From the NCBI GenBank assembly GCA_000091205.1, contig AP006484.2: a stretch of 64,000 bases of DNA; one strand, given 5' to 3'. The notes under the pieces were generated by a model. The model was not told the origin of the DNA, did no database searches, and saw only the letters and a program-made list of their open reading frames with translations. This DNA is from Cyanidioschyzon merolae. Lineage: Eukaryota. The translations under genes and the position numbers were made by a program. Below are positions 1-30,637 of the stretch, one piece after another (the stretch's first letter is position 1; each line of letters starts with the position of its first letter).

Positions 1-1
1 A

Positions 2-2839
2 TCGAAGCCAAGCTCGAGCGGACAGCGCTGGAGAACGCTCGTGCGATTCACGAGTCCCGTCTTTCGAACTTACCGACCGCATTGGCGATACAGCATCTGG
101 AACGTCGTTCTCTGGCCCGAACGGCAGTGCGCTTGGCAGATCGATGGTGGTGGTACGGGCCTGTGCGAACGTCCCGGGGATTACGCTGTCCCCTGGTGTT
201 GCAGTGCGCCCGGGCATTTGGTTCACGACCAGGGGCCCTTTCGCTGCCGACGAGGCTGTCTCCTGTGCCCGTGCCTCAAAAGACACTACGGATTCCTGCT
301 CAGACAGCGGGTGTGGTGCCGAGTCTTTTGCTCTTCTAGACAACTTGTGCCAGACGACAAGCCCCCCATCAGGCATCAGCAGCGTACCTCCCGGGAGTAG
401 CCGTGCATCGCGCGGCACCTGCCAGGAGGCCACCCGTCGAACCCAGGGACGAGGTAAACCCGAGCGTCGACGGTTACTAGATCGTTCTGGAGAGGGCGTT
501 TCCGGCTCTCCAAGGGCAAACAGAGATAGCAATCCCCGCTGCGCACTGAGTGTGAGAAATCTAGGCGTTCGACTCGGTACAGCGATGATATCCGCCTGCG
601 TCTTGGTTCCATCGGACCCCTGCAGGCGTTCTGGAGACTCCACTACAACATGCTCTATCCACGCGACATGCACGGCGGGCACCGCTTTATGCAAGTAGAT
701 CGGGTAAAGCGCCCTGTCACTTGCATAAAAGACGAGCACCCGTCCAGCTCTGTCGACAGCCAGCAACCAGGAAACACCACCGGCCCGCCGACGATTACTC
801 CATCTCGCACACTGCACCACATGATGCGAACCATTATCGTCAAAGGCGCGCTCCAAACGAAGCGTTTCTCGCTGTGGGACCCATTCCAGAAAGCGTTGCG
901 AATGGTACATCGCACGATGGTGTTCTCGCGGCCGCTGTATAAGCGCTGGATGATACACCAGCGAAAAGTCCGCAGGAGCAGTCTTCAAATCGACCTGCTC
1001 TGCACAATCTGTACCTGAGAAATGATGCCCGTGATGTGAGCCCATTCTCATCGACGTATCCAGAGTCTCTGGATCAACAGCACCAGTGGAGGTCCCCGGT
1101 GCACCTTGAGAGGACGCTGCTGCCGGCAACTGCTCGTTCTTCGAGAACATAGCTCGTATGCCGGCATCCGGCCCTGGTCCTTGCACTCTCGAGTCCGCTG
1201 GACACCGCGTTCGTTGCCCAGTGCTCCCTAGTTGGAGCGCTGCGTTCCGATCCCAGTGCCACTGGTATGGAAGGTTCTTGATCAAGCGCTTCGCCTGCTG
1301 TTGCCATTTTTTCGCGAGCTTGTAGGCGGTGGCTGCGGCGCGAGCACCACGACTCGGACATGGAGCAGCCCAGACACCCACTGCAGGAGAGCGACCAGCT
1401 GTGATCACGTAAAATCTCGACGCCCCTGCTCCGTCACTGCGAGACTGCTGGCCTTGCTGCACCGTGTCGGGTAGATGAGCGATCCAGTGCGCGCTGATCC
1501 AGGTTGATCTAGCCTTTTGCGGTAACGACCATTCGTGAACCCAAGCGGTTGCCGTATCACAGGCGTCCGTCGAATCTGGAACGTCACCCACAGTCGTCAC
1601 GAGCGCAATGGTATCCAGCACTAGAACGGAGCCGTCGGGATGCGAAACGCTTACGAGACCTTTGGCAGAGGCGTTGAGGGCGCAGCGGTCCTCAGTCCAG
1701 GCCGCTGTCTGGCCTTGATCAGCATTCGGGACACGGTGATACGTATCTCGACCCCAGAGGTGAGCTTGCACGCTTGCAACGCCGCCTATAGAGCTGGATG
1801 TGCAAGCTTCGTTTGAATGGATCAAGGTAGAGAGCAACGCTCCAGTTTCCAGCGCCGGTACTCTGAAGCAAGCTAGTATGCCTTGCTCATAAGCTATCCA
1901 GAGCCAGTGCGTTGCAACAGCAGTGGCAGGAGAAGTAGTAGTAGAAATCAAGTCCATTTCCTGCTGCTCATCAACAGACGCTGGTGCCTTTTGCAGCGCT
2001 GATGCATCCGCCGTCTGCCCACTGGGAACAAAGCAAGCATCCCAAACTGGCCTCGGGGCAGCAGCAACAGCAGCAGCAGCAGAACAATCAGCAGCCGTGA
2101 ACACCCTACCACTGGAGGAACTCTCCATCACCGACTGCGTCTGTGCTTCACAGGAGGCCCCTGGAGACGAGTGCACATGCAACGGCGCCGCAGATGCGGA
2201 AGATACCCTCTTCCCGTGCATGTGCGCTGGTGTCTGCTGGTCCCTCGGCGATATCTGGGATACCCGTTGCAAATTCGAAGCATCGGCTTCTTCGAAGGCA
2301 GGCTGTTCGAGTAGCCACCATCGGGACGCAGCCGCCGAAGCAATCGACACTGCAACTAGGATTGCGCGCTGATTCCACCTACAGACCATGTAGAGTGTAG
2401 ATGTTCCAGGCTCGAGCAGCTCTGGTCCCGCCAACACCTCCAGAGACAGATGAAGCTGGGCTGCCTCGTTCGGTTCCCGCTGCGACACGACTGAAGCGCT
2501 CCAGGGCAGAATCGGACCCAGTGATGCAGCGGATGATGCTGTCGTTGGATTCAAAATCTGTTGCATCGCTCCGTAAGCATTGTTCGGTATTCTTGATATC
2601 GGACGAGTCTGAGGCGGCATAACTGCAAGCGAGCCGGTTTCAGCTTGCGATACGTTTCGTCGCGTCCAAGCAGGAGCAGTTCCTACCTCGCCGTTCTCAT
2701 CAGCGTATGGACGCAAGGCACCTCGAGGTGACGCGTCCAAGCGCGAAGAATCTGTCTCAGCAGGTCCGCGCAGTTCGCTTGGCAGCGTGCATAGCAAAAA
2801 AGGAACAGGATCCGTTTGCCCTTGGCATGGCGTATGCAT
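2..2839 (-). CDS. large hypothetical protein, 5' portion only (C-terminus lies beyond the left window edge); Ala/Ser/Pro-rich low-complexity N-terminal third followed by beta-propeller-like repeats (GSVLVLD, RVLVFYASD, GGLVVWH)
   Basis: Hand translation of the minus strand in the frame with codons at [3k+2..3k+4]. There is no stop codon from the in-frame TGA at 3095-3097 (minus strand) down to position 2, about 1031 codons. The first ATG is at 2839-2837. Frame continuity was checked at anchors 2-4, 659-661, 1499-1501, 1955-1957 and 2684-2686. It is absent from the supplied track only because it has no stop inside the window. Codon use is GC3-rich like neighbouring genes. Plus-strand ORFs 41..400, 144..698 and 1923..2372 are antisense to it. 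Confidence 0.5.
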   Translation of the reverse strand, partial: MHTPCQGQTDPVPFLLCTLPSELRGPAETDSSRLDASPRGALRPYADENGEVGTAPAWTRRNVSQAETGSLAVMPPQTRPISRIPNNAYGAMQQILNPTTASSAASLGPILPWSASVVSQREPNEAAQLHLSLEVLAGPELLEPGTSTLYMVCRWNQRAILVAVSIASAAASRWWLLEQPAFEEADASNLQRVSQISPRDQQTPAHMHGKRVSSASAAPLHVHSSPGASCEAQTQSVMESSSSGRVFTAADCSAAAAVAAAPRPVWDACFVPSGQTADASALQKAPASVDEQQEMDLISTTTSPATAVATHWLWIAYEQGILACFRVPALETGALLSTLIHSNEACTSSSIGGVASVQAHLWGRDTYHRVPNADQGQTAAWTEDRCALNASAKGLVSVSHPDGSVLVLDTIALVTTVGDVPDSTDACDTATAWVHEWSLPQKARSTWISAHWIAHLPDTVQQGQQSRSDGAGASRFYVITAGRSPAVGVWAAPCPSRGARAAATAYKLAKKWQQQAKRLIKNLPYQWHWDRNAALQLGSTGQRTRCPADSRVQGPGPDAGIRAMFSKNEQLPAAASSQGAPGTSTGAVDPETLDTSMRMGSHHGHHFSGTDCAEQVDLKTAPADFSLVYHPALIQRPREHHRAMYHSQRFLEWVPQRETLRLERAFDDNGSHHVVQCARWSNRRRAGGVSWLLAVDRAGRVLVFYASDRALYPIYLHKAVPAVHVAWIEHVVVESPERLQGSDGTKTQADIIAVPSRTPRFLTLSAQRGLLSLFALGEPETPSPERSSNRRRSGLPRPWVRRVASWQVPRDARLLPGGTLLMPDGGLVVWHKLSRRAKDSAPHPLSEQESVVSFEARAQETASSAAKGPLVVNQMPGRTATPGDSVIPGTFAQARTTTIDLPSALPFGPENDVPDAVSPMRSVSSKDGTRESHERSPALSARAWLR
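2058..2083. repeat. (CAG/GCT)n trinucleotide microsatellite inside the large minus-strand CDS (encodes an Ala run)
   Basis: gcagcagcaacagcagcagcagca is read directly. On the minus strand it codes AAAAVAAA. Confidence 0.6.
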
Positions 2840-3781
2840 TCTTTTGCGAGAATGGAGCGTCCACGCGTTTCCGTCCGCTCGAAAATCGTATTGAATGCGT
2901 TTTCCCCACCGGTGGCACGGAATGCAGTCGAACTTGGTGTTCGTCTGGGTTTGCCAGTTGTGCCGCGCCCAGCGTTCTGTTGCTTGTCGCACAGGTGGCA
3001 ATGCGTCCAGCCTGAACCTGGTGGGTACCTCTCCCGAAATAACCGATACAGTGATTCGCTTCTGGGCAAGTCCGAAGCAACCCTGTGAGTTGGCTCAATA
3101 AGCCTGCACTGTATAGGCGGGAAACAGGTGTCCATGTAACTTTTTCTGGCGTCGACGTCTTGGAGTCAGGAGGTAACGCGCACACGAGGGCACTCTTTGC
3201 GTTTTCTCACGCAAGCAATCACAGCAGTCCACAGCACGCCGGCTTGCCGACGTCTTGCTGCCAGCGATTTACGCTTACAAGGGAGCACCCGCAGAGTTTC
3301 TGAGTAAGCAAGCAAGGGTCAACCGAGAAGTCCAGTTCCCAGGTACAACAGTCCACCGCGTTCGCTCAGCAGCAAACTTTGTTGCGCGGCAACTAAGAAA
3401 TCCTATCGAGTCCTCAAACTTACGGAAACAAAGCAACTTTCACCCCTCGAGATCCAGTGCTTCTTCTAAGCCATACCTTGGTCCTCCTTTGACGGTTGCA
3501 CGAGGTCTCCAGGGCCCTCTGTACGCAGTAGCAACTCGCCTTGGAGAACATTTCGCGTAACGTATGGCGCGCAGGATTGATGTTCCGCAGGGACGTCTGT
3601 GGGGCACTCGCTCCGCCTCTGAGGCGGACAACGTTCCATAGGCCACTGACTGAACGAAATCGCTCGTGGCGGGGGTTGGGCGTCTTGCGTAGGACGTAAC
3701 CCCGGAGGCGAAGAGGGCCTCAGCGCTAACTGGCTCTTAAGCGGTGCCTCAGGCTTACATGGAGCCTGACGCGTTACAGCA
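2840..3781. promoter_or_regulatory. divergent intergenic region between the large minus-strand gene (ATG 2839) and RNF10-like gene (ATG 3782); presumed bidirectional promoter
   Basis: Lies between two divergently oriented start codons. It is AT-richer than the flanking coding DNA and has no supported ORF. Confidence 0.2.
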
Positions 3782-5983
3782 ATGGCTGAGCGGCAGCGTT
3801 GGTGTCTCCAGCGACGGCACCTGTGTCTCGTTTTACGTCCAGAAGCCGGACAACGCTTACGCGAATACCTGGAGCACCCAGACGTTGTTCCAGACTGGAA
3901 CGACGTTGAGTTTGTGGCCGAGCACTCGGATACCGACGTTCCGAGAGCAAACGCTCGAGCAAAGGCTCCCAACGGTGCACGAGACAGCGTAGCGGCGGTC
4001 CCAGAAGCACTGAAAGCGTTATCGTTAACAGACGACGTTGAAGGCCCCGTGGATCCGATCACGCTCGGCGTTTTGCGTGCTCCGTATACCACCCCATGTG
4101 GCCATGTGTATTCAGCGCTGGCGATTGTGCGACACCTGCTCGTAACGTTCGAACGAGCCCGCCCAAGGGGCGTCGAAGACAACACTTGTCAGGTTGGAGA
4201 CGCGCTGCAGTTACTCGCACGGTGCCCCGTATGCACCGACTGGTTCTCTTTTGATGATCTTCGTCCCTATGTTTCCTGGCACAGTCCGACACCGCTAACC
4301 CTGCATTCCCGCATCCGAATGCGTCTGTTGTGCCGCCCTCGGGGTTGTGCGTCCCGTATCATGCTACCTCGAGACTGGATCGACACAACAGAGGCCAAAC
4401 TGTTGTGGTCGGTCGGCGCCAGCACCAAGGCTTCGGAGAAACAGCACGCGCCTGCAGCCATAGCGGATCCCGACCGTACTCAGTGGCATACTGACCAAAC
4501 GCAGTCTACGACAATCAAAGCGTTAGCAGATACGTTTTGCCAGCGTATGATGACTACACCGGTAGCGGAGGACGGAGACGAGCAGCTACTTCCCTCGAGG
4601 AAAAACGGGCGCTTCTATCGGGTCTTGCTCGGGGAACCTGATTTTGTAGAGGAGCTCTTCGTCAGCCGGGAAGCGGAGTTGCAACAGCATCTAATGGAAG
4701 ATGAAACGATGGAGCTGGCGCACACGCTGGTGATGCATCGCGAGCGCGCTCGCAGAGCGACCGTGAAGCGAATAACCCAGCAGATAGAGACCGCTTCATG
4801 GTCGAAGCAGGAACCCTTCGAACCTTTCCTGGCAAACGAGATCGCTCCGTCGCAGTCGAAACGCTTACCGGCTGAAGTGGCCGCTCGGGCAACCGTTGAG
4901 GACCCGCTGGACCTTCCACAGCGGCAAGCGATGCCTCCGGCACGCACTGACGCTTGCCCTGCACCCGAGAAAGCGTCGATTGCCGTAGAGTACGTCGGAC
5001 TGTACCAGATTGCAGATGGTCGACAAGTTTACATGCATCCGCAAAACTATCGAGCACTGCTCCAACAGTACGGATCGGTGGAAAAGCTTCCGCTTTGGAT
5101 CCAGGGTAGCCTTCTCAGCTGCTATGAATGTCGCACCGAAGAGAAGAAGGCGCGCGCCTGGAGAGGCCGCAGCGCCCATGCAAGTTTCCCGAGAGATCCA
5201 GAGGCATCCAATTGTCGTCAGTTTCACTTACCCGTACCGCTACCGCCGGGCTGTGTGTACTTTGTATGCAAACTGGCATTCGGAGATACGGAAACACCGC
5301 GATGTCGCCGCTATCGTCAGCGAGGAGGTGGAAACGTTCATCCGTCGCACGCATCAGGCGCTGTGCAGCAGCCGCCAGCATTTGCTAGCCGAGAAACCGG
5401 TTCAGAAAACCCTTTTAGCACTTCAAGCGCGCATCGTTCGGTGCCTATGTCGAGACAGACGAAGGCACACCGCAACCGACCTGTGCCCAAACCACAAAAA
5501 GAGGTATCTCGTGGAGCGGAACATGTTCAAACCCCAAGAGAGCGACAGCGCGGGCAACCGCGTCTACGCAGCTCAGAACCGTCGCTGCGGGAAGTCTTCG
5601 AACAAGAGCGTCAGCATATCATCGAAGCGCACGGTGGTGCGCAATTATTCTTCCGTGATCCAAGTCGGGAAGCACTGGATCACACTCGACCCTTTTCGCG
5701 AGCAGTTTCTCATCAGCATCCACCGCCGGCTAGCGAGCGGCACGAAATTGCAGAGCGCGCTTCTACCTGGCCTGCGCTGAGCTCGACAATGCTGCCTGCA
5801 GTGGAGCAGGCACCACAGTCTACCGGGGAGCAAATCCAAGCATCTAATGTTTCCTACGCCCGCATTGCGCAAGTGCGGGGAGGATACTACCCCACCCTGC
5901 GCGACTTGTATGGTCATGCGGAATATGTGCGACCCGCAGCAACATCTGCATCCGAGAGCAAAGATAACCACAAGCCGAACTAG
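3782..5983 (+). CDS. RNF10: RNF10-like RING finger protein (733 aa) with a degenerate RING in which zinc site I is lost
   Basis: Single 733-aa ORF. Block VVPDWNDVEFV matches the RNF10 motif VNWDFVEQV. DPITLGVLRAPYTTPCGHVYSALAIVRHLL...CPVCTDWF aligns to human RNF10 [29 protein letters not shown]...CPICYSSV. GLYQIADGRQVYMHPQNYRALLQQYGSVEKLP aligns to RNF10 [29 protein letters not shown]. The RNF10 sequence is from memory. Confidence 0.6.
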   Translation: MAERQRWCLQRRHLCLVLRPEAGQRLREYLEHPDVVPDWNDVEFVAEHSDTDVPRANARAKAPNGARDSVAAVPEALKALSLTDDVEGPVDPITLGVLRAPYTTPCGHVYSALAIVRHLLVTFERARPRGVEDNTCQVGDALQLLARCPVCTDWFSFDDLRPYVSWHSPTPLTLHSRIRMRLLCRPRGCASRIMLPRDWIDTTEAKLLWSVGASTKASEKQHAPAAIADPDRTQWHTDQTQSTTIKALADTFCQRMMTTPVAEDGDEQLLPSRKNGRFYRVLLGEPDFVEELFVSREAELQQHLMEDETMELAHTLVMHRERARRATVKRITQQIETASWSKQEPFEPFLANEIAPSQSKRLPAEVAARATVEDPLDLPQRQAMPPARTDACPAPEKASIAVEYVGLYQIADGRQVYMHPQNYRALLQQYGSVEKLPLWIQGSLLSCYECRTEEKKARAWRGRSAHASFPRDPEASNCRQFHLPVPLPPGCVYFVCKLAFGDTETPRCRRYRQRGGGNVHPSHASGAVQQPPAFASRETGSENPFSTSSAHRSVPMSRQTKAHRNRPVPKPQKEVSRGAEHVQTPRERQRGQPRLRSSEPSLREVFEQERQHIIEAHGGAQLFFRDPSREALDHTRPFSRAVSHQHPPPASERHEIAERASTWPALSSTMLPAVEQAPQSTGEQIQASNVSYARIAQVRGGYYPTLRDLYGHAEYVRPAATSASESKDNHKPN

Positions 5984-6468: not shown

Positions 6469-7623
6469 CTAGTGTGCCTGCTCAGTTTCTGCGTTCGCGG
6501 AAAAATCACAGAGTCGAGGTCGTGTCCACAGGTACCAAGCAACACCGAAGAACGGTATCCATCGGGCTACGCCCAACATACGTGTTCCCTTCTGACTCTG
6601 TGGGTTTAAGCCTCGTCGACGCATATCGTCGGGCACCAGCTCAGCCTGGAACAGCGCAAAGACCAGCATATCAATTGGAAAGGACACTGCTAGACGATCT
6701 TTCTGTAGAAATGCCTGCCAATAGAGCTGGAAACGCTCTAGCGTAAATGGTGGTGCCGCTGGGTACTCTGGACGACCCGCGAACGCCCAGAGCATTGCAA
6801 ACAAGGCCACAACGCAGAGGATCAGGGGTAAGCCGCGGGACTCGGCTATCCGCAGCAGCATATCAGCTTCGCTGTGCCTCGCTGCTACCGTTTTTTTCGT
6901 AGATGTGAATGGTCGCAGCGAATGCTCTGATGAATCCGTGTCTACGATGGTTGCAAGGCTGCTGGGGTTCTGGCGCAGCACCAGGTACGGCAAGTAGAAG
7001 ACATTGGTGAGCAGTGCGGAGCCTACCAGGAAGACCCACATGGGCAGTATTTGTTTTTGTACTTGCTTTTGAGCGGTGCGGCAATGCCGGCTAATGTCAT
7101 CGCTGAGAAAGCCGATAAAGAGTAACGCCCAGCATACGACAATCTGGAAGGTGCTCTCCAGAACCGGGTGCAAAACTGGGGCCTGGCTAGGACTTAAAAG
7201 CGGAAGGATGAAAAAAAAGTTCATAGATAGGTCCAGAGCCTCATGAATGGTCTCGCTGTCGATACGGAAAACACTAGACCCCGGTAAAAGGTCTGAACAG
7301 AGCACGACACCCACGTACACGAGCCAGCAGACAAAGATTAAGGCCTTGCGGTGCGTCGGCTTTGCCTGCTTCATCACTAGCTGGTGTAGGCGACTTGTTG
7401 TCGCGCTCGCTGTTCGTTTCAGAGCATAGACGGCAAAGGGTTTTCCCTGGGAAAACAAACGATGCGCGCAGTTGATGAACGGGTAAGCAACGGTGAGCTT
7501 TGCGTGGACGCTCCCGCGTCTCGAGGCAGCACTGCATACGACGCTGCGGTTGCGCGAGCTCAAGCACAATGATAGCGTCCTCCGAGTAACGTGACTGCAA
7601 CCTGAGCCCAAAAACAACAGCAT
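6469..7623 (-). CDS. hypothetical multi-pass membrane protein (384 aa), Ser/Arg-rich N-terminus suggestive of a presequence
   Basis: Complete ORF with at least six hydrophobic segments: IFVCWLVYVGVVL, FFFILPLLSPS, IVVCWALLFIGFL, ILPMWVFLVGSALL, LILCVVALFAMLWAF, WIPFFGVAWYLW. Codon bias is GC-rich. No family was recognised. Confidence 0.4.
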   Translation of the reverse strand: MLLFLGSGCSHVTRRTLSLCLSSRNRSVVCSAASRRGSVHAKLTVAYPFINCAHRLFSQGKPFAVYALKRTASATTSRLHQLVMKQAKPTHRKALIFVCWLVYVGVVLCSDLLPGSSVFRIDSETIHEALDLSMNFFFILPLLSPSQAPVLHPVLESTFQIVVCWALLFIGFLSDDISRHCRTAQKQVQKQILPMWVFLVGSALLTNVFYLPYLVLRQNPSSLATIVDTDSSEHSLRPFTSTKKTVAARHSEADMLLRIAESRGLPLILCVVALFAMLWAFAGRPEYPAAPPFTLERFQLYWQAFLQKDRLAVSFPIDMLVFALFQAELVPDDMRRRGLNPQSQKGTRMLGVARWIPFFGVAWYLWTRPRLCDFSANAETEQAH

Positions 7624-9348
7624 TCAGAGGACTTGAGTAATCTAGTTCCGTCGTGTTCCCCGTCACCTCCGCGAGACCAGCCCGGTGAGCGCACCGTACC
7701 CGCACCAAGACCAGTCATAGCCGCGGTCATGGTTATATGGACTTGTCGGGGCTGGTTGCATCCGATGCAGCGCTATTGGAAAGCAGCCCCCAAACATAGC
7801 GGTGTCATCGACTGGTCCAACTTGCATGTGAAGCGATCGCTCCTGTTGCCCTAAAATAAAGTCTTTCAGCCGATTAACCTTCATGGTAGAAAAACGGAAC
7901 TGGTCGTCTAGTTCGGGCGTACACGCGAAAGTTTAGGCACTTCCATGATCATCATATATACCAGTCTTGACGAATTTTTCTGTGACTAGTGCCTTGTCTC
8001 TCCGTTGATCTGTAGCTCTAAGTACGCCGATCTTTCCTCTCCCTCTGGCTGCGTTTCCAGCAGCAGAAGCATGTGTTGATGACAGCGTTCGAGTCCCGAT
8101 TTCTCCGCTTCTGCTTGTAGGCTACGCATTTCGTGCACAGGCGGTCGTTGCGATCTGAGCTTCGTATACCATATTCTTTTTCTCGTGTATGCACAGCCTC
8201 GGTGGGTCCATCGCAGCTGCGAAACTTGACAGCGGTACGTTGTATCCATCCGTCCGCCATAGGTTTTCGTCCTCCGACGGTCGTCCTGTGCCGCAAAAGC
8301 ATTCGCTGCATCGCTCGGTTCATGCCCTTGACAAGCATAGAAGGCTCCCTCGATACCCGTCTCCGTACCCAGCGATGATGATGTGCTTTGTATGAAAGAT
8401 CCGCACGGTGAGTACGCTCTACGCCGCGTATGGCAGCGCATGCTGTTCCAGTCGATGTGCGATTTCTGGACCGCTATGTTAGCCATGATGATGAGACAAG
8501 CACCGGAGGTGAAATCCAGGTATGAAAAGAGATCGAGAAGTTCCGAGTCTACGACCCTATTCTGTGTCAATAGAGGAGACGTTAGCGTATATGATCGTGT
8601 ATCATGAAGCGTGACACGCTGGTGAGGCATGCGCGTTTGCGGATGCGCACAGAGCGAGGACGATTCTCGTTTCGCATGAAATAGATAACTCGACAAGTTC
8701 AGCGAGCGTTCGTTATGAGCATATGCAAAAGTCATCAAGGGACGACGTCGTGTGCAGTTCCTTGATCATCAAGCAGTGCGCATTGCATTGCGTACAGGCT
8801 GCCCCGAAACAAAAACAGATAGAGAACTTGAAGAAACTGTGATTCGAGCATGCGACACGTAAGTAAATCAGAGGTGTTCTGGCTTGTACGTATGAAGTGT
8901 ATCACGACATCGTTTATTTTATCGACCTGGTTCGAGGATGGTGCGAAGCATCCTGATGCCCATGACGTAACGAATTCAAGCGACTAGAACGCAAAGGAGT
9001 CGTTTAGAAACCCCAACGGAGAAATCCAGAATAACGTATGCATCCATAAGCCCTAATTGCTGCACTTGGAGTATCGATGCTGTAAGTGTAAGAATAAGTT
9101 CGGAAAAGAATTGCAAGGCGCGTACAGAGCGACCGGTTCCGTGCTCCATTCCAATCTGAGGAAGGCCAGGAACACCACGTCAGGGACGTGGCGACTTGTA
9201 CGCGTGACTGTCGACAGTTCTCACTGGGTGCCACAGGAACTGCGCGAATCAGTCCAGGAACTGTACGTGTTTTCGTTTCGCTGGGGCATAGCAGGGCCGG
9301 CGTGGATAGCGCACCACGCTCGCTTCCATAGCAGGAACGGAGGCGAGC

Positions 9349-10140
9349 ATGGGTCTCCTGAGCGTTATTCGCAAGCAGAAACGCCGTGATCGAGAAGTCC
9401 GCGTTCTCGTGCTCGGTCTCGATAACGCTGGTAAGACCACCATAGTGCGAAGGCTGCTTGGAGACGACGAAGCTGCCGTGAGACGAACAGCGCCCACTGA
9501 AGGTTTTTGTATTCGAACACTCGTACTGAAAGGCGGGTATCGTTTCCACTTTTGGGATATCGGTGGTCACCGGGCGCTCCGATCCTACTGGCGAAACTAT
9601 TTTGAGCGGACGGATGCGATTATCTGGGTAGTCGACGCAACGACGCCGCATCGAATTAAGGGAGAAGCTGCTCAGGAGCTAGCCGCCCTGCTGTCGGAGC
9701 CGAGTCTGTACCAGGTGCCTCTCTTAATCATCGCAAATAAGATGGACTTGCTAGCCGCGGAACCTGTCTCATCGGTGCGCAAAGCGCTTGGCATCGATGC
9801 CTTCTGCGTTGCAGGAGCAGCAGCAACAATAGCAACAGCAACAATAGCAACTCCGACGAGCCGAAGAACCCCGTTAGAGGCGAATCAGCAGACCGCCTCT
9901 GACACGATGGCTTCGACATGGGCACAGGCTTGGCCTGCTGATGAACTCAGTCAACTGGATGGACGACGACCCATCCATGTCATGCCATGTAGTGCCTACA
10001 CTGGCGAGGGACTGTCGAATGCCCTGGATTGGCTTGCTCAGCAGGCTATCCAGCGCCTGTATCGTTTCGATACCAGAGGCGATTTACGATCATCACCGTC
10101 ATGTGTTCTTTCCGAGCAGCAGCATTCGGTGGCGCTCTAA
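9349..10140 (+). CDS. ARL2: ADP-ribosylation factor-like GTPase 2 (ARL2) with an in-frame ~50-aa low-complexity insertion
   Basis: [68 protein letters not shown] matches ARL2 [61 protein letters not shown]. The C-terminal [12 protein letters not shown] matches TGENLLPGIDWL. Confidence 0.8.
   Translation: [263 protein letters not shown]
9814..9852 (+). repeat. imperfect (GCA/ACA)n trinucleotide repeat encoding [12 protein letters not shown] inside ARL2
   Basis: ggagcagcagcaacaatagcaacagcaacaatagcaac is read directly. It sits in frame inside the ARL2 ORF. Confidence 0.6.
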
Positions 10141-10929
10141 GAAAGACGCGCATAGCGACAGCGCTGGAATCTGCACGTGCAGATCCTGACGATTACCTCC
10201 GAGGTATGCTGTAGTAGAGTTTGCAGTTGTACTTCGTAATTCGACCCACATTATCCCCAAAGCTCGGAAACTTGCACTGTAGATCGCAAATGCGTTGCAT
10301 GTGAGCGTGAGCAGTAGGATGCAAACCAGAAAGTTTCAGGTGCAACTCGACGGTAACCAGAGGACCTGGTCAGTTGCCTGAATCTACCGTCTCGCAGCAT
10401 GCCTTGTCCAGGGAAGACTAAGTGTTTCGATGGGAGCTGCATCGGAAAGCAACCTTGGCGCCCTTGTTGCGCAGTAAACATGTATCAGAGACTGCTGTCG
10501 AGGGTAGCGCGGAGAGGGCACCCGCTTCGCGTGGCCGTGTCCGAGACCTGCGTTGGTTTAGAATGGATGAATGAACTGCCCGTCCTACTCCTGCCTTTCA
10601 GTTGTGTTTCAAATGTTTTACAGGCTTCCAGAGTCAGTATTCGAGGTGCAGGAATAAAGGCTGAAGGACTCAGATGCAGGTTTGGGACTCTCGAGCGTAG
10701 TTTTGGGGTAGTTCCTTCAACGCTTTCATGCTAGTTTTCGTTACATCTTTGGAATTAAGATAACTCTCGCCGCGCTCGTCCAAGGTCTCGTGGAGTAACC
10801 GGAATCATTACAGAAACGATACGTATAAGCCTCCATTCGTTTCCTTTCCTCACGTTCACCTCGCTCAAACCACGGATTCTTCAGGTTTCCGATGTTTGTT
10901 TTTCAAGGCACCTCCTGGAAGCAGAAATT

Positions 10930-11700
10930 CGCGCCACTAGATTGACCACGGACGAGACTCGACCTCGTACCAAGACGACGTGTTCAAATGCAGATGCCGC
11001 AAGATCACTGAGCCTGTCACGCCGAATACTCTATTCCCTTCGAAAGAGAAATCCCGATTTCTTTTGTGGCCAAGGAAGAAACAGCATTCTACAACGGCAT
11101 GATATCTCTCATGGGGTATGCCCCGAGAGGCTCCCGTCGTTTCTTTTGGCATAGATCGCGGTCGTGGATTCGGAATGGGGTCATCATAAATATCGCGCCC
11201 AATGAAATGTAGGTCATCGCTTGGCAAGCAGAGAACATAGATGCGTGAGGATTCCTCGACTTGTTCTGCAACCTGGATTCGCCTTTCAGTACTCTATTAC
11301 TCATGAACAACATCACGTTCCGCCAGTCCTCCATCAAATGGAAAACCATGCGCTTACCTGTGCAGCAGACGCAGTAGTCAACGACGGGATCATCCAAAAG
11401 AAGCTCGTACTCGTAGAGTGCGTCATCTGATGCGGAAACGGAGCTGTGCATCAAGCGGAGTATTTTGTACCCAACAAGGACATGGACCATGCCATGGAGC
11501 AATCGTTCGAACACCATAGCGCGGTGCTCGGCGGAGTCGGTTTCACAGGCATGCGACAGCCCCTGAACACTGTCGGAGGTCGCCGCTTCGAAAGGTGCAC
11601 CGACGCTGAGTACAAGCAAGAAGATGAACACGGCAAGCGAGGTGTAGATCGCAACTTCCGTTTGTCCCTGAAGTACGTCAACAATATCCAGAAGCGGCCA
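10930..11700 (-). repeat. dispersed ~750-bp repeat family, copy A (reverse orientation relative to copies C/D)
   Basis: Shares ordered motif blocks with copies at 14690-15440, 44070-44830 and 51040-51800. These are tacgtcaacaa (rc of gttgtcgacgcat), ttttgtacccaacaagg (rc-type of cttgacgggtacagaa), ctcgacttgttctgca, and gacgacgtgttcaaatgcagatgccg (rc-type of catgagcttgtgaacaagtc). Nucleotide identity is roughly 70-80%. The track ORFs here (11089..11778 minus, 11446..11781 plus) overlap in all three frames, so the similarity is at nucleotide level and not coding. Confidence 0.5.
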
Positions 11701-12688
11701 CACCGATACATGAAAGCTACCATCAACAAGCTTCGCATGCTCACAACGGAGCAGGAGGTAATGGAGAGACCGGCGCACTGAATACCAGAGATAAACATGA
11801 CATAAAGGAAGCAGCAGCTACAGAGAAAGCCCACAGAGGCTGGTACCGACGATCATCGAAAGCACCCCATTTTTCGAAAATACACTCCAGTTTGTGGCCC
11901 TGTACCATCTCACTCCAGCATGAGCGTTCGACGATGACGCCTACAACACCTGGAATACCCGGATGTGCGGGTATCCTGCCAACCGCAGTCGCGCATGAAA
12001 AACTTGTTCATGGGATAGGGATCTGTGTCTGGTACCAGACTCGACTGAGGCGTGGAGACTCATTTTGATACTTGACGAGTATCGCAAAATGGAATTTGGA
12101 GGCCTTGGTCTCTGAACCGAGCGTACTCGCGTCGACAAAAACCCAAAAGTCTTTTTTTGGAGCGGGAAGGCCGTTTCAACGCAGCACGCTCAACCCGTAC
12201 TGTCTGGCGTCACGTTCGGTCGTGCCAGGCTTCCAGCACGGAACACACAAGCCGCCAAAACTTCTGTTGCGTTCTGTTTTCTGATTATCTGTTCGTGTTT
12301 ATCGCTAGCGGTGCAAGCAGGGTTTTCTCACTGGTTGTGTTTACGTTTTGAGGCTGCTTTTACCTCGCCCTGTACCAAGGAAAGAGTCTTTTCTAGTGGT
12401 GCGGCGCGCTTCCGCCTCACGAGTGCTACGCTGGTCTCGGGGACAACGAAAGCGCAGGCTCCGGTACCTCTGTAAATTGCTCACAAGCCGGTACCGTGCT
12501 CCATCAACGGAGGCTCTAGGCACCGAGTAGTTCCGGGAGTGCCCGAGAAGGCGCCCGGTCTTGCGTGAGCTCTGCTGATCGAAAGGCAACGCTCTCGACT
12601 CCCTTTGGCAGGTTGACAGCGGTATCAAACCAGAGCAATCGGTATTCAGAGGCTCTGTCCAAGTTCTAAGCTTCGCCCTGCAAACAAG

Positions 12689-14017
12689 ATGGCAGAGCGC
12701 AGCGTGCAAGAAGCGCTCGAAGACATCTTCGGTTCCGACGAAGAAAACGAGCAAGTTACCGCACCGTCGGGGACTGTCGATGAGCAGACCACCACCTTGG
12801 ATGTTGCAGCGAGCAGGGGTCTGCATGATCACCTTAGCAAGCAGCCTAGCGATACGCACGAGCCGAGCGTACCCCAGGTTGACGCTTCTGGGGATACTGC
12901 ATCCCGTACCGATGACTTCATCGACGTCTCTGCTGCCGATCCGGAGCTGCTCCGTGAGGACCCCGATGACGTGATTCGAACCGAGGGTGGATGGTCATCC
13001 CGCTCTGCAAGTGAGGACGAGGATCAGTTGAGCGATGAGGGTGCTCGCCATCCATTGACCGCATTCGATCGCACCATGCGGCAGATCCAGTCTCGTAGGC
13101 AAAGAAAGCAAATCACCAACCGGGAAAGTGAAAGGGATGCAGAACGAATCCTGGAAAAGATGCGCTCTGCTTACGATGCGGATCTCATTATGGCGAGGTT
13201 GGGCCGCCCAGCGCTCGCAAAACTTCGCCTTTTGCCGGAAGTGGATACTGAGCTGCGGCGGAAAGAGATCCGAACAACACTCATCCGCCGCGGGCTCTTT
13301 GAGGTGCTTCGACGCTGGTTGGATCCGTTGCCAAACGGGGCGCTACCCTCGATTGACGTCCGCTCAACATTGATGGATATTCTGCTTACGTTTCAGACGA
13401 GAGTGAGCGATTCAGAGGATGAACTCGAGGAAGAAGAGACCGCAACCGAGTTGCAACGCTCTTCGGCACGACGTGCAGGAACCAGAGCGTGGGAGCGCGC
13501 GCTCCTGAACTCCGGCCTTGGGCGTTGTATTCACTACTACAAGCTATATGATCCAGACCCCGCTTGTCAGCTCAAAGCAGAGCGTCTGGTGATGCGCTGG
13601 GCAGCTGCAGTGCTGCACTCCGATACAAACTATCGCAACGCCTTGCATAAGCGTTACGAAATGGTGCCGGCTCGGAGCGGCTCGCAAGCGCAACGTCGAG
13701 AAACACCGAACAGAACCTCTGGTGCAACTGACTTGCCGGCAAAGCACGAAACTGCGAGCAACGCTCCAGGTTTACCGGCCACCGCGACGCCGGATCATTT
13801 CACAAACCCGATGAAGTCAAGCGCACCTGCGGTGTTAGCCGCGGCGCTTCCCGAACGTCCATCAGGCGACTGGAAGCGGATCCCACAGGTTGGAGAGTTA
13901 CCTGCTGTTCCCCGGATGCGCTCCGTTCGAGAGAAACAAATGAGCAAACACTTGAAACGGATTCGCGATACGGTTCAGATGAGCGGATTCGAGCGCGGGG
14001 TCTCGACAACGAGGTAG
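12689..14017 (+). CDS. IWS1: IWS1/Spn1-family transcription elongation factor (442 aa)
   Basis: Acidic N-terminus followed by an IWS1-C/TFIIS-N-like block: LLPEVDTELRRKEIRTTLIRRGLFEVLRRWLDPLPNGALPSIDVRSTLMDILLTF. Single ORF. Confidence 0.7.
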   Translation: MAERSVQEALEDIFGSDEENEQVTAPSGTVDEQTTTLDVAASRGLHDHLSKQPSDTHEPSVPQVDASGDTASRTDDFIDVSAADPELLREDPDDVIRTEGGWSSRSASEDEDQLSDEGARHPLTAFDRTMRQIQSRRQRKQITNRESERDAERILEKMRSAYDADLIMARLGRPALAKLRLLPEVDTELRRKEIRTTLIRRGLFEVLRRWLDPLPNGALPSIDVRSTLMDILLTFQTRVSDSEDELEEEETATELQRSSARRAGTRAWERALLNSGLGRCIHYYKLYDPDPACQLKAERLVMRWAAAVLHSDTNYRNALHKRYEMVPARSGSQAQRRETPNRTSGATDLPAKHETASNAPGLPATATPDHFTNPMKSSAPAVLAAALPERPSGDWKRIPQVGELPAVPRMRSVREKQMSKHLKRIRDTVQMSGFERGVSTTR

Positions 14018-15981: not shown

Positions 15982-18129
15982 TCACTGGGGTACAGACACC
16001 AAGTCGGGCGGTTTGACAGGCAAATCGCCAGCTGCTGGCTCCGATTCGCCCTCCGGACGCCAGTCATGCTTCGTATAGACCTCCTCAAGGAGCGTTCTGC
16101 AGGGAATATTTGCCTGCAGTCGCATACAAGTCAAGAACGCTCCGCTCAAACGACGATGGAGGGAATAGGCCTCACGCGGAGGCGGACACAATCGATGCTG
16201 CAACATAACCTGCCCGAAACGTGCCGCCCGCACTGCAATATTACTAGAGGCAAATTCGTAACTCTTGGCAAAGGCAGCAGAGAAGGGCTCTCCAACCACG
16301 AATGCGGCCTCACAATGGGCGTCCAGCATAAGCCTGGACTCTTCTCCGGTGAGAAATCCAAGCTGCTGAGACCACTCAAGGATGCCGGCGCGGTCACGAT
16401 TCGCACAGGCCATCACGAGGTGCAAGTACGCGTCGACGAACGCTTTCGGATAGGAACGCGCTGCACCAAAGTCCAAAAGGTGAAGCGTATCTGATTCGAT
16501 TTCGTAGAGGAAATTGCTGAAATTGGGATCCGTTTGCATGAATCTTTTCTCAAATAGCTCATGCAAAGTAAGGCGAAGCATGCGCACCGCTAGTTTGTTT
16601 CTCTGTGCCGCAGGCACGCCGAGGCTAACGAGTCGATCAAGCGGCTCGCCGTCTACCCATTCAGTGGTAAGGACGTTCCTTGTCGAGAGCGACGCAAGTA
16701 CTCTCGGTATGTGCACGTGGCCCTGGTCGAATCCCTGAAAGAGCGCAGCAAAGCGTACTTGATTAGCTGCTTCAAGCTCATAGTCGCATTCGCAGAGCAA
16801 CTCCTCACGCGCTACGCGAATAGCCTCGTCGAGGTAGAGACCTCTGGGGATCAAATTCGTGTAAGTAAGAAGACGCTTCAGATTCTTCAGGTCCGACTCT
16901 ATTGAAGCTGCAACTCCGGGGTACTGGACTTTGACGGCAATGGGTCGCTCATGATTCTGCTCTCTAACGGAAGCACGATGTACCTGGCCGATGCTTGCCG
17001 CTGCAACCGGTTCAAAATTGAAGGAGTGAACGCGCTGTTGCCAGTCGGGTCCCCATTCTTGCCGCAAAACTCGCTCCAGCTGACGTCGCGGCATGAAATC
17101 TGCACCCTGACGGGCCCGTTCCAGTGCTTGCAACAGAATTGGAGGCACGGTTCGCTCATCCTGCATGGAGAGCATCTGTCCCAGTTTGAGGGCGGCGCCC
17201 CGCATACGGCAGAGTGTTCGAGCTATGCGGTCGGCATTCTCCGGAGACAGGTATCGCTCCAGTCCAGAGCGTTCTTTGGTAGGAGCTGCACTCAGCAGGG
17301 AGCTCTTGGCTGCGTTCCACACAATGCCGAGCGCTAAGTTTCCGAACCCGAACATCCGTTCCACAGTCGTTGCTGGGACGCGACGCGCTTCTCCAACCGA
17401 GCGTCTCGGGGCCGAATTTCTCACGTCGCGCTCGGTGAATGCATTTGTTGTTTGCTCCTCCTCCTGGCCGACACGATGATGCACAGTCTGTACAGCAGGG
17501 TCTGGTGTGGTATCGTAGGAGCTGCCTCTGCGTGATCGCAGCTCGGGTCCAACATCATTCTCACTTATCGTCGATGCATTTGCTTCTCTCGCCAGTGGTG
17601 GCGGGCGACTGCTATGCTCCAAGTTGGCAGGTGCCGCGTTTTCGTTGCTAGGAGTCACCGCATCCCCTGTGTTGTAAGGTCTCCCAGTGACCAGGGTTCC
17701 TGGCAATGCACTCGATTCTCGTCCCGTTGCTGCCACGTTCGCGTACTGTGCAGGCTGCTGCAAGTTTCGAACGACTTCCGAAGCAGCTGCATCCGCTTCC
17801 CTCGCCGTGACAGCGGCCTCCTGTAGTGTACTTGTGCGCTGCGTTCGTGCTCCAGCAGTTGCAAGCGAACCTTTTGGTTGCTGTATTGCTTGCTTCCCCG
17901 AAACAGCAAGTACGACCTCAGTTGACCAGTCTCTTACTCGGCGAGCGAGCCCATGCTGCATCAGAGCTAAGCTTCCTCCTACAGGTGCTGCATTCGAGAC
18001 AGCAACTCCGACTTGCGGTATGCTTTCCGCTCGGAACGCCAACCAGACCGAGCGCACACCTTGAGCGATTATCGCCCAATCGGCTAAACGAAAAAGCGTG
18101 CTTTGATCCGGAGCCACGGGTACCTTCAT
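15982..18129 (-). CDS. COQ8: ABC1/ADCK atypical kinase, COQ8 (ADCK3/4) orthologue, with ~330-aa low-complexity N-terminal extension
   Basis: ARTLCRMRGAALKLGQMLSMQD, ADFMPRRQLERVL, AAASIGQVH, IAVKVQYPGVAASIESDLKNL, ECDYELEAANQ, FMQTDPNFSNFLY, LLDFGA, HRLCPPPREAYSLHRRLSGAFLTCMRLQANIPCR. These are colinear with the COQ8 motifs LCTVRGAALKVGQMLSIQD ... FMQTDPNWANFLY ... LLDFGA ... [24 protein letters not shown]. Confidence 0.85.
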   Translation of the reverse strand: MKVPVAPDQSTLFRLADWAIIAQGVRSVWLAFRAESIPQVGVAVSNAAPVGGSLALMQHGLARRVRDWSTEVVLAVSGKQAIQQPKGSLATAGARTQRTSTLQEAAVTAREADAAASEVVRNLQQPAQYANVAATGRESSALPGTLVTGRPYNTGDAVTPSNENAAPANLEHSSRPPPLAREANASTISENDVGPELRSRRGSSYDTTPDPAVQTVHHRVGQEEEQTTNAFTERDVRNSAPRRSVGEARRVPATTVERMFGFGNLALGIVWNAAKSSLLSAAPTKERSGLERYLSPENADRIARTLCRMRGAALKLGQMLSMQDERTVPPILLQALERARQGADFMPRRQLERVLRQEWGPDWQQRVHSFNFEPVAAASIGQVHRASVREQNHERPIAVKVQYPGVAASIESDLKNLKRLLTYTNLIPRGLYLDEAIRVAREELLCECDYELEAANQVRFAALFQGFDQGHVHIPRVLASLSTRNVLTTEWVDGEPLDRLVSLGVPAAQRNKLAVRMLRLTLHELFEKRFMQTDPNFSNFLYEIESDTLHLLDFGAARSYPKAFVDAYLHLVMACANRDRAGILEWSQQLGFLTGEESRLMLDAHCEAAFVVGEPFSAAFAKSYEFASSNIAVRAARFGQVMLQHRLCPPPREAYSLHRRLSGAFLTCMRLQANIPCRTLLEEVYTKHDWRPEGESEPAAGDLPVKPPDLVSVPQ

Positions 18130-29815: not shown

Positions 29816-30637
29816 ATGCGATGCGCTCTCGAGCCATGCACGTCAGCGAAGCGCGCGTTCCCTAGGCCCCACATTGCATCCGGGGTTTCTTTCTCTAAAC
29901 GCTTTGTCAAGGACATAAACCTCTCCGTTTATCTGTCTGGGCTCGACATACGAAGGAGATTTCGTCACCATTTGAAGCAAGAGACTGAAGCGCTATCGAG
30001 GTCGCCTCGGCGCATGCACTTCCAGGGCGCTCCGGCAGGGTCGGGGTCTCCGACCCGCTCAATGGTTTCACTGCCCAGGGTGTTTTCTTCTAGTAGAGAC
30101 CACGCTCAAGGTGTATTGTTTTGGATCTTTATTTTACTGATTGCCACTTTGGAGCGCTTGCGGTGCCTCGGTCGAGATCTTCGCCGACGCTGGCGAACCG
30201 CGCCGCTCAAGCACACGCAACTGCAATCGTTTCCGTCGCACGTCGCACTCCTCGGTAACGAAGCAGCGCTTGCGTCGATCACGAAACACCTAATAGGACG
30301 CGGTGTTCAGAGAGTTACTGTGTTTGATCCGGGCAAAAGGGAGCAGCGAGGGCGCCTTGGCAGGGCAAGCACTCCAGCGAGGCTTGTTCTGGGCCCTGCA
30401 GACGCCACACGTCGCCGTATTGTGGCCATGACGGTAGACCAGCGCGAGCGCATCAGCGATAACAGAGCCTTCTACGATGAACCAGACTTGCTACTCACCT
30501 TGGATGGGCATCTTCACGGGTATCCGGCCACGGCGCTGCGCGTTACGCACCTCCACCGGCTTGCGAATCCGAGTTTATGGGCGGTAGATGAGGCGCTTCG
30601 TCTCTACTTGACAACTGAACGTCGCCAAGGTCGATGA
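29816..30637 (+). CDS. NUS1: NUS1 / Nogo-B receptor-like subunit of dehydrodolichyl diphosphate synthase (cis-prenyltransferase); true start may be an internal ATG
   Basis: C-terminal LHGYPATALRVTHLHRLANPSLWAVDEALRLYLTTERRQGR matches the NgBR/Nus1 C-terminus pattern L.GY.PW.IRLTE...LP......A..EAL..Y...E.R.G. There is an N-terminal hydrophobic segment VLFWIFILLIATL. Single ORF. Confidence 0.6.
   Translation: MRCALEPCTSAKRAFPRPHIASGVSFSKRFVKDINLSVYLSGLDIRRRFRHHLKQETEALSRSPRRMHFQGAPAGSGSPTRSMVSLPRVFSSSRDHAQGVLFWIFILLIATLERLRCLGRDLRRRWRTAPLKHTQLQSFPSHVALLGNEAALASITKHLIGRGVQRVTVFDPGKREQRGRLGRASTPARLVLGPADATRRRIVAMTVDQRERISDNRAFYDEPDLLLTLDGHLHGYPATALRVTHLHRLANPSLWAVDEALRLYLTTERRQGR

What the first reader, a model, noticed from the sequence alone, without database searches (positions are those of the whole stretch)
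2..3097. A ~1031-codon open reading frame on the minus strand runs off the left window edge and is missing from the ORF track
The supplied track lists only ORFs with a stop inside the window. In the minus frame with codons at [3k+2..3k+4] I found no stop from the TGA at 3095-3097 down to position 2. The chance of this is negligible even at ~60% GC. The product starts at ATG 2839 with an Ala/Ser/Pro/Thr-rich low-complexity region of about 300 aa, including an (Ala)n run encoded by the (CAG)n microsatellite at 2058-2083. It then carries beta-propeller-like repeat signatures: SVLVLDTIALV, RVLVFYASDRALYPIYL, GGLVVWHKL. All plus-strand track ORFs in 1-3700 are antisense artefacts of this gene. Its identity is unknown. 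It is the largest gene in the window.
Basis: seen in the sequence. Interest (0 to 1): 0.55.

Follow-up and report, generated by a model that had tools for sequence, protein, structure and literature searches.

The report
Edge-truncated annotated red-alga gene CMB037C
The long open frame is real, but it is the first 946 codons of an already annotated, expressed gene of unknown function (CMB037C) in the red alga Cyanidioschyzon merolae, cut off by the window edge; its N-terminal half may be a very divergent relative of Rab3GAP2, a membrane-traffic regulator.

Summary
The minus-strand frame is open from the TGA at 3095-3097 down to base 2, and the first ATG is at 2839. The window is C. merolae 10D chromosome 2 (NC_010128.1:96001-160000). 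The ORF is residues 1-946 of CMB037C, a single-exon 'hypothetical protein' of 1645 aa. It is missing from the ORF track only because that track omits ORFs that run off the window.

The gene is real. It is transcribed at about 45-75 TPM. It has syntenic full-length orthologues in Cyanidiococcus yangmingshanensis and a third cyanidiophyte (27-29% identity). Its coding part varies far less between strains than the in-frame upstream stretch does.

Exhaustive sequence searches found no relatives outside this clade, and no Pfam or PDB match passes threshold.

The N-terminal half is beta-rich, and even a poor model resembles almost only beta-propellers. The C-terminal 600 aa, outside the window, is helical.

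The only specific lead is a weak, reproducible, colinear similarity of residues 478-509 and 695-774 to the beta-propeller of Rab3GAP2, the regulatory subunit of the Rab18 exchange factor. I put that reading at about 0.5. The finding is ordinary and of low interest.

The parts
2..2839 (-). Coding sequence for residues 1-946 of CMB037C. Residues 947-1645 lie left of the window, at NC_010128.1:93902-96000.
   Evidence: The frame is open. The translation is identical to P0006/XP_005535145.1 residues 1-946. The GFF gives one CDS, 93902..98839, minus strand.
2837..2839 (-). Start codon (ATG)
   Evidence: It is the first ATG after the upstream stop and the annotated start codon. All three orthologues begin at the same aligned column.
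2840..3094 (-). 85 in-frame but non-coding codons (5' leader or promoter)
   Evidence: Translated in frame, 9 of 85 positions differ between strain 10D and strain variant P0003. In the CDS, 14 of 1645 positions differ between the same two.
3095..3097 (-). Upstream in-frame stop (TGA) that bounds the open frame in strain 10D
   Evidence: It is read through as a sense codon in some wild strains, which gives 1764-aa gene calls that start at GTG.
2057..2086 (-). Imperfect (GCT/GCA)n microsatellite encoding the Ala run, residues 254-261
   Evidence: TRF, the sequence itself, and an in-frame 3-nt length polymorphism against strain contig L001.
335..1942 (-). Beta-strand-rich, propeller-like region (residues about 300-835), interrupted by a variable low-complexity loop
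1313..1408 (-). Residues 478-509 (VITAGRSPAVGVW... followed by a helix): second, weaker colinear match to human Rab3GAP2 304-335
   Evidence: hhalign score 23.3 against a null of 15.1 +/- 2.7; 1 of 60 shuffles reached it. It is the top hit for C. merolae alone and the second hit for P0050 alone.
890..1282 (-). Low-complexity, poorly conserved loop (residues about 520-650), with a 44-residue insertion specific to C. merolae
   Evidence: Alignment A1, columns 541-584; invariant fraction 0.04-0.14; pLDDT below 30.
518..757 (-). Residues 695-774 (VDRAGRVLVF...HKAVPAVHVAWIEH...PRFLTLSAQRGLLSLF): core match to human Rab3GAP2 402-478, the region that holds R407 and R426
   Evidence: hhalign score 39-41 against shuffles at 16.8 +/- 3.2. 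The Pfam RAB3GAP2_N sub-threshold hit in orthologue P0048 covers the same region. This is the most conserved part of the N-terminal half.
2..334 (-). Start of a poorly conserved, presumably disordered linker (residues 836-946; it continues to about residue 1060 outside the window)
   Evidence: Invariant fraction 0.02-0.08; pLDDT below 30 and no secondary structure.

Best explanation
The ORF is the 5' 57% of CMB037C, a real, intron-less, constitutively transcribed nuclear gene of Cyanidioschyzon merolae. This part is shown. It encodes a 1645-aa soluble scaffold protein. The protein has an N-terminal beta-propeller-like domain (residues about 300-835, with long low-complexity loops), a disordered linker, and a C-terminal all-helical domain (about 1060-1645, outside the window). 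The architecture is shown at secondary-structure level and the fold is inferred. The most likely function is that it is the cyanidiophycean, highly divergent counterpart of Rab3GAP2. In that reading its propeller would dock a Rab3GAP1-like partner to form the exchange factor that loads GTP onto Rab18 at ER-derived membranes, and the lineage-specific helical C-terminal domain would regulate or localise the complex. The function is inferred from weak remote homology, not shown.
For: Gene reality:
- The translation is an exact match to annotated CMB037C.
- TPM is 44-74 in three strains or ploidies and the gene is detected through a day/night time course.
- Full-length orthologues of 1541 and 1544 aa share 27-29% identity, with conserved blocks along the whole length.
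- Synteny is conserved: a divergently transcribed 728-758-aa neighbour, an Arf-like gene and a DnaJ gene.
- Against strain contig L001 there are 8 synonymous and 6 non-synonymous changes and only an in-frame indel.
- The in-frame upstream stretch diverges about 12 times faster than the CDS.

Architecture:
- AF2 DSSP is beta-rich for the N-terminal part and helical for the C-terminal part.

Rab3GAP2 lead:
- RAB3GAP2_N is the only Pfam family recovered in the whole-protein scans of the three orthologues: E 0.095 for whole P0048 and E 0.022 for the isolated domain, profile positions 302-375 of 419.
- hhalign of the three-orthologue profile against human Rab3GAP2 aligns residues 695-774 to human 402-478. 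The human sequence was verified identical to PDB 8vyb_B. Score 38-41, E 3e-4 to 2e-3.
- Controls were lower. Column-shuffled templates gave 16.8 +/- 3.2 (max 31, n=70). Reversed sequences gave 18.5 and 19.8. The WD40 controls SEC13, WDR5 and GNB1 gave 20.8, 16.8 and 18.0.
- With the core masked, the next best match is colinear: 478-509 to human 304-335.
- Run singly, two orthologues give the core as top hit, and the second region is the top or second hit in two orthologues.
- Human R407, which holds Rab3GAP1 E24, aligns with R700.
- The overall plan is the same as human Rab3GAP2: propeller, flexible linker, C-terminal domain.
- Rab18 is retained in a red alga and is rarely lost in eukaryotes.
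Against: - No Pfam hit reaches threshold: the best is 14.5 bits against a 26.6-bit cut-off.
- An obviously unrelated family, DUF6283, scores the same in the fragment scan.
- C. merolae itself and P0050 give no Pfam hit.
- hhalign probability is only 14-38%. A P-value of about 5e-4 would not survive a search of the whole Pfam library.
- The N-terminal part of the propeller (residues 1-474) and the region downstream of the core show no signal.
- The C-terminal domain shows none against the Rab3GAP2 C-terminal domain: 15.0 against a null of 17.2.
- The Rab18-contacting R426 aligns with Pro, His or Gly in the three orthologues.
- Whether C. merolae has Rab3GAP1 and Rab18 genes could not be checked.
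Confidence: 0.5

Rival explanations
1. CMB037C is a clade-restricted (Cyanidioschyzon/Cyanidiococcus lineage) beta-propeller plus helical scaffold protein with no orthologue elsewhere. The resemblance to Rab3GAP2 is then the generic look of two or three propeller blades, and the function is something else, such as an organelle-division, trafficking or diploid-phase factor.
For: phmmer of residues 447-1646 against 1.84 billion representative proteins found only cyanidiophycean sequences. Two word-indexed searches of 5.8 billion clusters found only the protein's own cluster. A metagenome scan found only C. merolae-like contigs. No family passes threshold in Pfam or PDB sequence searches. The best-conserved part, the helical C-terminus, matches nothing. 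hhalign probability for Rab3GAP2 is below 40%. Expression is about 1.7-fold higher in diploids.
Against: The Rab3GAP2 similarity is well above shuffled, reversed and WD40 controls. It recurs in two colinear segments and in separate orthologues. RAB3GAP2_N is the only Pfam family that the whole-protein scans recovered. C. merolae has a minimal, mostly pan-eukaryotic gene set, so a 1645-aa conserved, expressed protein is likely to have a divergent universal counterpart; this last point is inference.
Confidence: 0.37
2. It is a very divergent member of a different known beta-propeller plus alpha-solenoid family. Candidates are scaffold nucleoporins (Nup155/133/160), a HOPS/CORVET or GATOR subunit, RIC1, the NBAS/Rod type, or ELP1.
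Confidence: 0.12
3. The open frame is not a functional gene: a chance ORF, a pseudogene or an antisense artefact.
For: None beyond the absence of database homologues outside the clade and the compositional bias (about 50% A/S/P/T/G/Q).
Against: The chance probability is about 6e-17. The frame is open over 1541-1645 codons in three species that are only 27-39% identical. Synteny is conserved. The gene is transcribed. The indel polymorphism is in frame. The upstream in-frame sequence evolves about 12 times faster.
Confidence: 0.01

Closest known systems
Rab3GAP2 (Rab3 GTPase-activating protein non-catalytic subunit; Pfam RAB3GAP2_N PF14655 and RAB3GAP2_C PF14656; human Q9H2M9; PDB 8VYB chain B)
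   Same: The size class is similar: 1393 aa against 1541-1645 aa. The order of parts is the same: N-terminal beta-propeller, flexible linker, C-terminal domain. Two colinear sequence matches fall inside the propeller: 478-509 to human 304-335, and 695-774 to human 402-478. The second includes G-R-V (human R407), the exact K-x8-W spacing of the KGYRDAQIGW motif, and the following FL...RGxL strand.
   Different: The match is below every curated threshold. The N-terminal part of the propeller and the whole C-terminal domain show no detectable similarity. The residue aligned to R426 is not basic in C. merolae. The protein has about 300 extra N-terminal residues and a loop of about 130 low-complexity residues. 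A partner (Rab3GAP1) and a substrate (Rab18) were not verified in this genome.
WD40 and other beta-propeller scaffold proteins (Sec13/Seh1, Nup37, WDR4, Elp2, DDB1 and similar)
   Same: The conserved blocks are beta-strand-rich and about 40-60 residues long. A generic 'D-x-x-G-R-V-x-(L/V/I)' blade signature is present. These proteins fill the top of the fold-search lists.
   Different: There is no WD40 (PF00400) or other propeller Pfam hit. hhalign against SEC13, WDR5 and GNB1 is at noise level, 17-21. The blades are separated by long low-complexity inserts.
Rod (KNTC1) and NBAS with Zwilch and ZW10 (RZZ/NRZ complexes)

Membership tests
Rab3GAP2 (PF14655/PF14656) | Match to RAB3GAP2_N (PF14655) at or above the gathering score of 26.6 bits | tested here: not met
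   There is no hit for C. merolae or P0050. Orthologue P0048 scores 12.3 bits (E 0.095) as the whole protein and 14.5 bits (E 0.022) as the isolated domain. DUF6283 also scores 14.5 bits in the fragment scan.
Rab3GAP2 (PF14655/PF14656) | Profile-profile similarity to the Rab3GAP2 N-terminal propeller beyond chance and beyond generic propellers | tested here: inconclusive
   hhalign score is 38-41 (probability 14-38%, E 3e-4 to 2e-3). Shuffles give 16.8 +/- 3.2 (max 31), reversed sequences 18-20, and WD40 controls 17-21. A second colinear segment scores 23.3 against 15.1 +/- 2.7. The signal covers only about 110 of about 540 propeller residues.
Rab3GAP2 (PF14655/PF14656) | Seven-bladed beta-propeller at the N-terminus | tested here: inconclusive
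Rab3GAP2 (PF14655/PF14656) | C-terminal domain homologous to RAB3GAP2_C (PF14656) | tested here: not met
   There is no Pfam hit in any orthologue. hhalign of A3 against the amniote C-terminal domain scores 15.0 against a null of 17.2 +/- 3.0.
Rab3GAP2 (PF14655/PF14656) | Functional residues of the human protein: R407 (salt bridge to Rab3GAP1 E24) and R426 (predicted Rab18 E164 contact; the WMS mutation R426C) | tested here: inconclusive
   The R407 equivalent is Arg in C. merolae (R700) and P0048 and His in P0050. The R426 equivalent is Pro, His or Gly. The neighbouring D427 and Q429 are kept in 2 of 3 orthologues, and K423 and W432 in all three. This depends on a low-confidence alignment.
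Rab3GAP2 (PF14655/PF14656) | Forms a heterodimer with Rab3GAP1 and acts on Rab18; both partner genes are present in the same genome | not testable with these tools
   No tool searches the C. merolae proteome. The literature gives only that Rab18 is retained in the red alga Neopyropia and is rarely lost in eukaryotes. The held annotation table has no 'Rab3' entry but was truncated when stored.
WD40-repeat proteins (PF00400) | Detectable WD40 repeat units | tested here: not met
   There are no WD40 hits at E up to 10 in any orthologue. hhalign against GNB1 (verified), WDR5 and SEC13 is at noise level.
Beta-propeller / alpha-solenoid ('protocoatomer-like') scaffolds | An N-terminal beta-propeller followed by a C-terminal alpha-helical repeat domain in one polypeptide | tested here: inconclusive

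The most novel reading that the evidence does not exclude
CMB037C and its two cyanidiophycean orthologues are the 'missing', extremely diverged Rab3GAP2 subunit of a Rab18 exchange factor in one of the smallest eukaryotic endomembrane systems. They would retain only the Rab3GAP1-docking blades of the propeller and would have replaced the C-terminal autoinhibitory domain with an unrelated, clade-specific helical domain.
Probability: 0.5. Interest if true: 0.3.

Novelty: already known. Interest (0 to 1): 0.15.

Why it matters
It matters little for genome biology. The gene has been in GenBank since the C. merolae genome was annotated (BAM78859.1 / XP_005535145.1), and it looked unlisted only because the first-stage ORF track drops ORFs that cross a window edge. 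There are two modest points of value. First, the scan has a systematic blind spot at window edges. Second, CMB037C is one of the large 'hypothetical proteins' of a minimal model eukaryote. A Rab3GAP2 assignment, if confirmed, would add a Rab18 exchange factor to the very reduced red-algal trafficking machinery. It would also show which part of Rab3GAP2 is indispensable: the blades around human residues 300-480 that contact Rab3GAP1 and Rab18. C. merolae is genetically tractable, so this can be tested directly.

Tried and rejected
- **Bacterial or viral origin:** rejected at once. Gene density is low, and JmjC, ABC1 and CCT genes are present; the neighbours' exact matches place the window in C. 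merolae. There are no tRNAs or Rfam hits in the window.
- **Word-indexed homologue searches** with the window part and with the full protein found only the protein's own cluster. The candidate lists were probably swamped by low-complexity words.
- **Exhaustive phmmer** with residues 447-1646 found only two cyanidiophycean clusters.
- **Metagenome pattern scan** found only C. merolae-like contigs.
- **PDB sequence searches** with the single protein and with the profile found nothing.
- **Human RAB3GAP2 as bait** to collect a diverse family returned only amniote sequences at 81% identity or more, so the template profile stayed shallow (A4).
- **Literature:** no paper mentions CMB037C, or Rab3GAP together with Cyanidioschyzon.
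- **Alternative start at Met92**, suggested by the 1555-aa metagenome gene calls: rejected, because all three orthologues align from Met1 and residues 79-94 are conserved.
- **Upstream extension**, suggested by the 1764-aa calls: rejected, because 10D has a stop there and the stretch evolves about 12 times faster than the CDS.
Full report
**Observation.** Translating window:2-3097 on the minus strand gives the leading TGA and then 1031 codons with no stop. This is the longest open stretch in any of the six frames; the next longest is 747 codons. With the local base composition (58% GC), the chance of this is about 6e-17. The first ATG is codon 2837-2839. The imperfect GCA/CAG repeat at 2058-2086 encodes AAAAVAAA, residues 254-261. 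The ORF is absent from the ORF list because that tool does not list ORFs running off an end of the source.

**Where the window comes from.** The window has sparse, long, intron-free ORFs on both strands, and their Pfam hits (JmjC, ABC1 kinase, a CCT chaperonin subunit, EF-Ts) are consistent with a eukaryotic genome. Exact-sequence look-ups show two matches. Window 9349-10140 is the C. merolae 10D Sar1/Arf-family protein XP_005535148.1, and window 15982-18129 is the ABC1 protein XP_005535150.1. Both sit on a 457,013-bp record. The 946-aa window translation is identical to residues 1-946 of XP_005535145.1 / BAM78859.1 / UniProt M1V6E9, 'hypothetical protein CYME_CMB037C', 1645 aa. A GFF in the supplement of PMC13353863 lists CMB037C as one CDS at NC_010128.1:93902..98839 on the minus strand, with its start codon at 98837-98839. 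CMB038C follows at 99782..101983 on the plus strand. These coordinates map onto window 2837-2839 and 3782-5983. The window is therefore NC_010128.1:96001-160000, and the missing 699 codons lie just to its left.

**Is it a real gene?** Yes, on five grounds.
- **Orthologues.** The exhaustive phmmer search returned two partial cyanidiophycean proteins. Looking up their clusters gave full-length orthologues: Cyanidiococcus yangmingshanensis KAK4533840.1 (1541 aa) and a third cyanidiophyte known from hot-spring metagenomes (1544 aa). They are 29% and 27% identical to CMB037C and 39% identical to each other. They align from Met1 to the C-terminus, with conserved blocks throughout.
- **Synteny.** Both orthologous loci have the same neighbours as C. 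merolae: a divergently transcribed gene of 728-758 aa (CMB038C-like), an Arf-like gene and a DnaJ gene (CMB036C-like).
- **Polymorphism.** Within the species, the window differs from a 99%-identical strain contig by 8 synonymous changes, 6 non-synonymous changes and one in-frame GCT indel in the Ala run.
- **Upstream contrast.** The 85 in-frame codons upstream of the ATG differ at 9 positions between strain 10D and strain variant P0003. The 1645-codon CDS differs at 14 positions between the same two. This supports ATG 2839 as the start. It also explains why some metagenome gene callers extend the model to 1764 aa in strains where the TGA is a sense codon.
- **Transcription.** TPM is 74/64/66 in diploid MS1, 51/49/42 in haploid MS1 Ha3 and 44/47/46 in 10D. 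The diploid/haploid log fold changes are 0.79 and 0.80, with FDR 7e-27 and 3e-21. The gene is also detected across a day/night time course.

**Anatomy.**
- **Residues 1-300** are A/S/P/T-enriched (43% against 36% in residues 301-946) but not featureless. They contain invariant positions and predicted strands.
- **Residues about 300-835** contain the conserved, beta-strand-predicted blocks: WLWIAYEQGILACF, GLVSVSHPDGSVLVLDT, WSLP, FYVITAGRSPAVGVW followed by a long helix, VVQCARW, WLLAVDRAGRVLVF, HKAV..V.V.W.EH, PRFLTLSAQRGLLSLF, WVRRVASWQVP and GGLVVWH. They are interrupted by a poorly conserved loop at about 520-650, which carries a 44-residue insertion specific to C. merolae.
- **Residues about 836-1060** are unconserved and unstructured.
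- **Residues 1060-1645**, outside the window, form the best-conserved part (up to 49% invariant at the extreme C-terminus) and are predicted all-helical.

**What is it related to?** By sequence, nothing outside this clade.
- Two word-indexed searches of 5.8 billion clusters returned only the protein's own cluster.
- An exhaustive phmmer of residues 447-1646 against 1.84 billion representatives returned only the two cyanidiophycean clusters.
- A metagenome pattern scan found only C. merolae-like contigs.
- No family in Pfam or the PDB sequence searches passes threshold.
- AlphaFold2 with three-sequence alignments gave poor models, with pLDDT 31 and 46.
- The C-terminal model matched only generic helical bundles.

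**The Rab3GAP2 lead.** In the whole-protein scans of the three orthologues, the only Pfam family recovered at relaxed thresholds was RAB3GAP2_N. It appeared in the Cyanidiococcus orthologue, residues 618-698 against profile positions 302-374 of 419 (E 0.095; E 0.022 for the isolated domain). To test it, I used the human RAB3GAP2 sequence after verifying it as identical to PDB 8vyb_B over residues 1-547.
- **Main match.** hhalign of the three-orthologue profile against the human sequence aligns CMB037C 694-823 to human 401-506, and against eight amniote orthologues aligns 695-774 to human 402-478. Score 38-41, probability 14-38%, E 3e-4 to 2e-3.
- **Controls.** Seventy column-shuffled templates gave 16.8 +/- 3.2 (max 31). 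Reversed template and reversed query gave 18.5 and 19.8. The WD40 propellers SEC13, WDR5 and GNB1 gave 20.8, 16.8 and 18.0, against 39.3 for Rab3GAP2 under the same settings.
- **Second segment.** With the core masked, the best remaining match is colinear: 478-509 (VITAGRSPAVGVW...) to human 304-335 (YITVGSSPFTGFFY...). It scores 23.3 against 15.1 +/- 2.7, and 1 of 60 shuffles reached it.
- **Single orthologues.** Run one at a time, Cyanidiococcus and the third species each give the core as top hit. The second segment is the top hit for C. merolae and the second hit for the third species.
- **Functional context.** The matched human region is important. R407 pairs with Rab3GAP1 E24, and R426 (mutated to Cys in Warburg Micro syndrome) is predicted to contact Rab18 (PMC11711316). 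In the alignment, R407 corresponds to R700. K423 and W432 are kept with identical spacing, and D427 and Q429 are kept in two of the three orthologues.
- **Architecture.** Human Rab3GAP2 has the same plan: a seven-bladed propeller (1-544), a flexible linker and a C-terminal domain.
- **Substrate.** Rab18 is retained in the red alga Neopyropia and is rarely lost in eukaryotes.

**Why this remains only a lead.**
- Every score is below curated thresholds.
- An unrelated family, DUF6283, ties with RAB3GAP2_N in the fragment scan.
- The hhalign P-value would not survive a library-wide correction.
- Residues 1-474 and the segment after the core give no signal.
- The helical C-terminal domain shows none against the Rab3GAP2 C-terminal domain.
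- The R426 equivalent is Pro, His or Gly.
- I could not check whether C. merolae encodes Rab3GAP1 and Rab18.

I put the Rab3GAP2 reading at about 0.5, a clade-restricted propeller/helical scaffold at about 0.37, another divergent known propeller-solenoid family at about 0.12, and 'not a gene' at about 0.01.

**Verdict.** What it found is an ordinary, already annotated and expressed gene that looked unlisted only because the window edge cuts it. It is not a new kind of element. The only new point is a testable but unproven suggestion that this 'hypothetical protein' is the cyanidiophycean Rab3GAP2. Interest is low.

Noticed in passing
window 2840-3097 (minus strand): In some wild C. merolae strains from hot-spring metagenomes, the upstream in-frame TGA is a sense codon. 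Prokaryote-style gene callers then extend the model to 1764 aa with a GTG start (P0003, P0010). Other contigs carry 1555-aa calls that start at Met92. Both appear to be annotation artefacts, not real isoforms.
   Followed up: partly
window 2057-2086: The (GCT/GCA)n repeat that encodes the Ala run varies in length between strains (AAAA against AAAAA) through an in-frame 3-nt indel.
   Followed up: yes
window 3782-5983 (+), CMB038C: This is the divergently transcribed 733-aa 'hypothetical protein' next door. It has only sub-threshold SP-RING/zf-Nse (E 0.0014) and RING (E 0.0034) hits at residues 90-151. A gene of similar length (728-758 aa), in the same divergent orientation, sits in this position in both other cyanidiophytes. 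It could be a SUMO or ubiquitin E3-like protein.
   Followed up: no
L007 (Cyanidiococcus yangmingshanensis GCA_026122185.1) 8001-12626; proteins P0046 and P0049: The earlier Cyanidiococcus annotation splits the orthologue into two models, KAF6000505.1 (862 aa) and KAF6000506.1 (578 aa). The newer assembly has one 1541-aa gene (KAK4533840.1).
   Followed up: partly
window about 1129-1260 (residues about 527-570): There is a 44-residue insertion specific to C. merolae (YQWHWDRNAALQLGSTGQRTRCPADSRVQGPGPDAGIRAMFSKNE) inside the low-complexity loop of the propeller-like region. It is absent from both orthologues.
   Followed up: partly
CMB037C as a whole (expression data, PMC13353863 Supplementary Data Set 8): Transcript level is about 1.7-fold higher in diploid than in haploid cells (logFC 0.79 and 0.80, FDR 7e-27 and 3e-21). 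Phobius predicts one transmembrane segment, which is probably a false positive in a hydrophobic beta-strand.
   Followed up: no
window 6469-7623 (-), 12689-14017 (+), 29816-30637 (+), 41841-43619 (-), 60950-62053 (+): Several other long ORFs in the window also have no Pfam match. 'Hypothetical' genes without recognisable domains are therefore common in this stretch of the chromosome, and CMB037C is not unusual in that respect.
   Followed up: no
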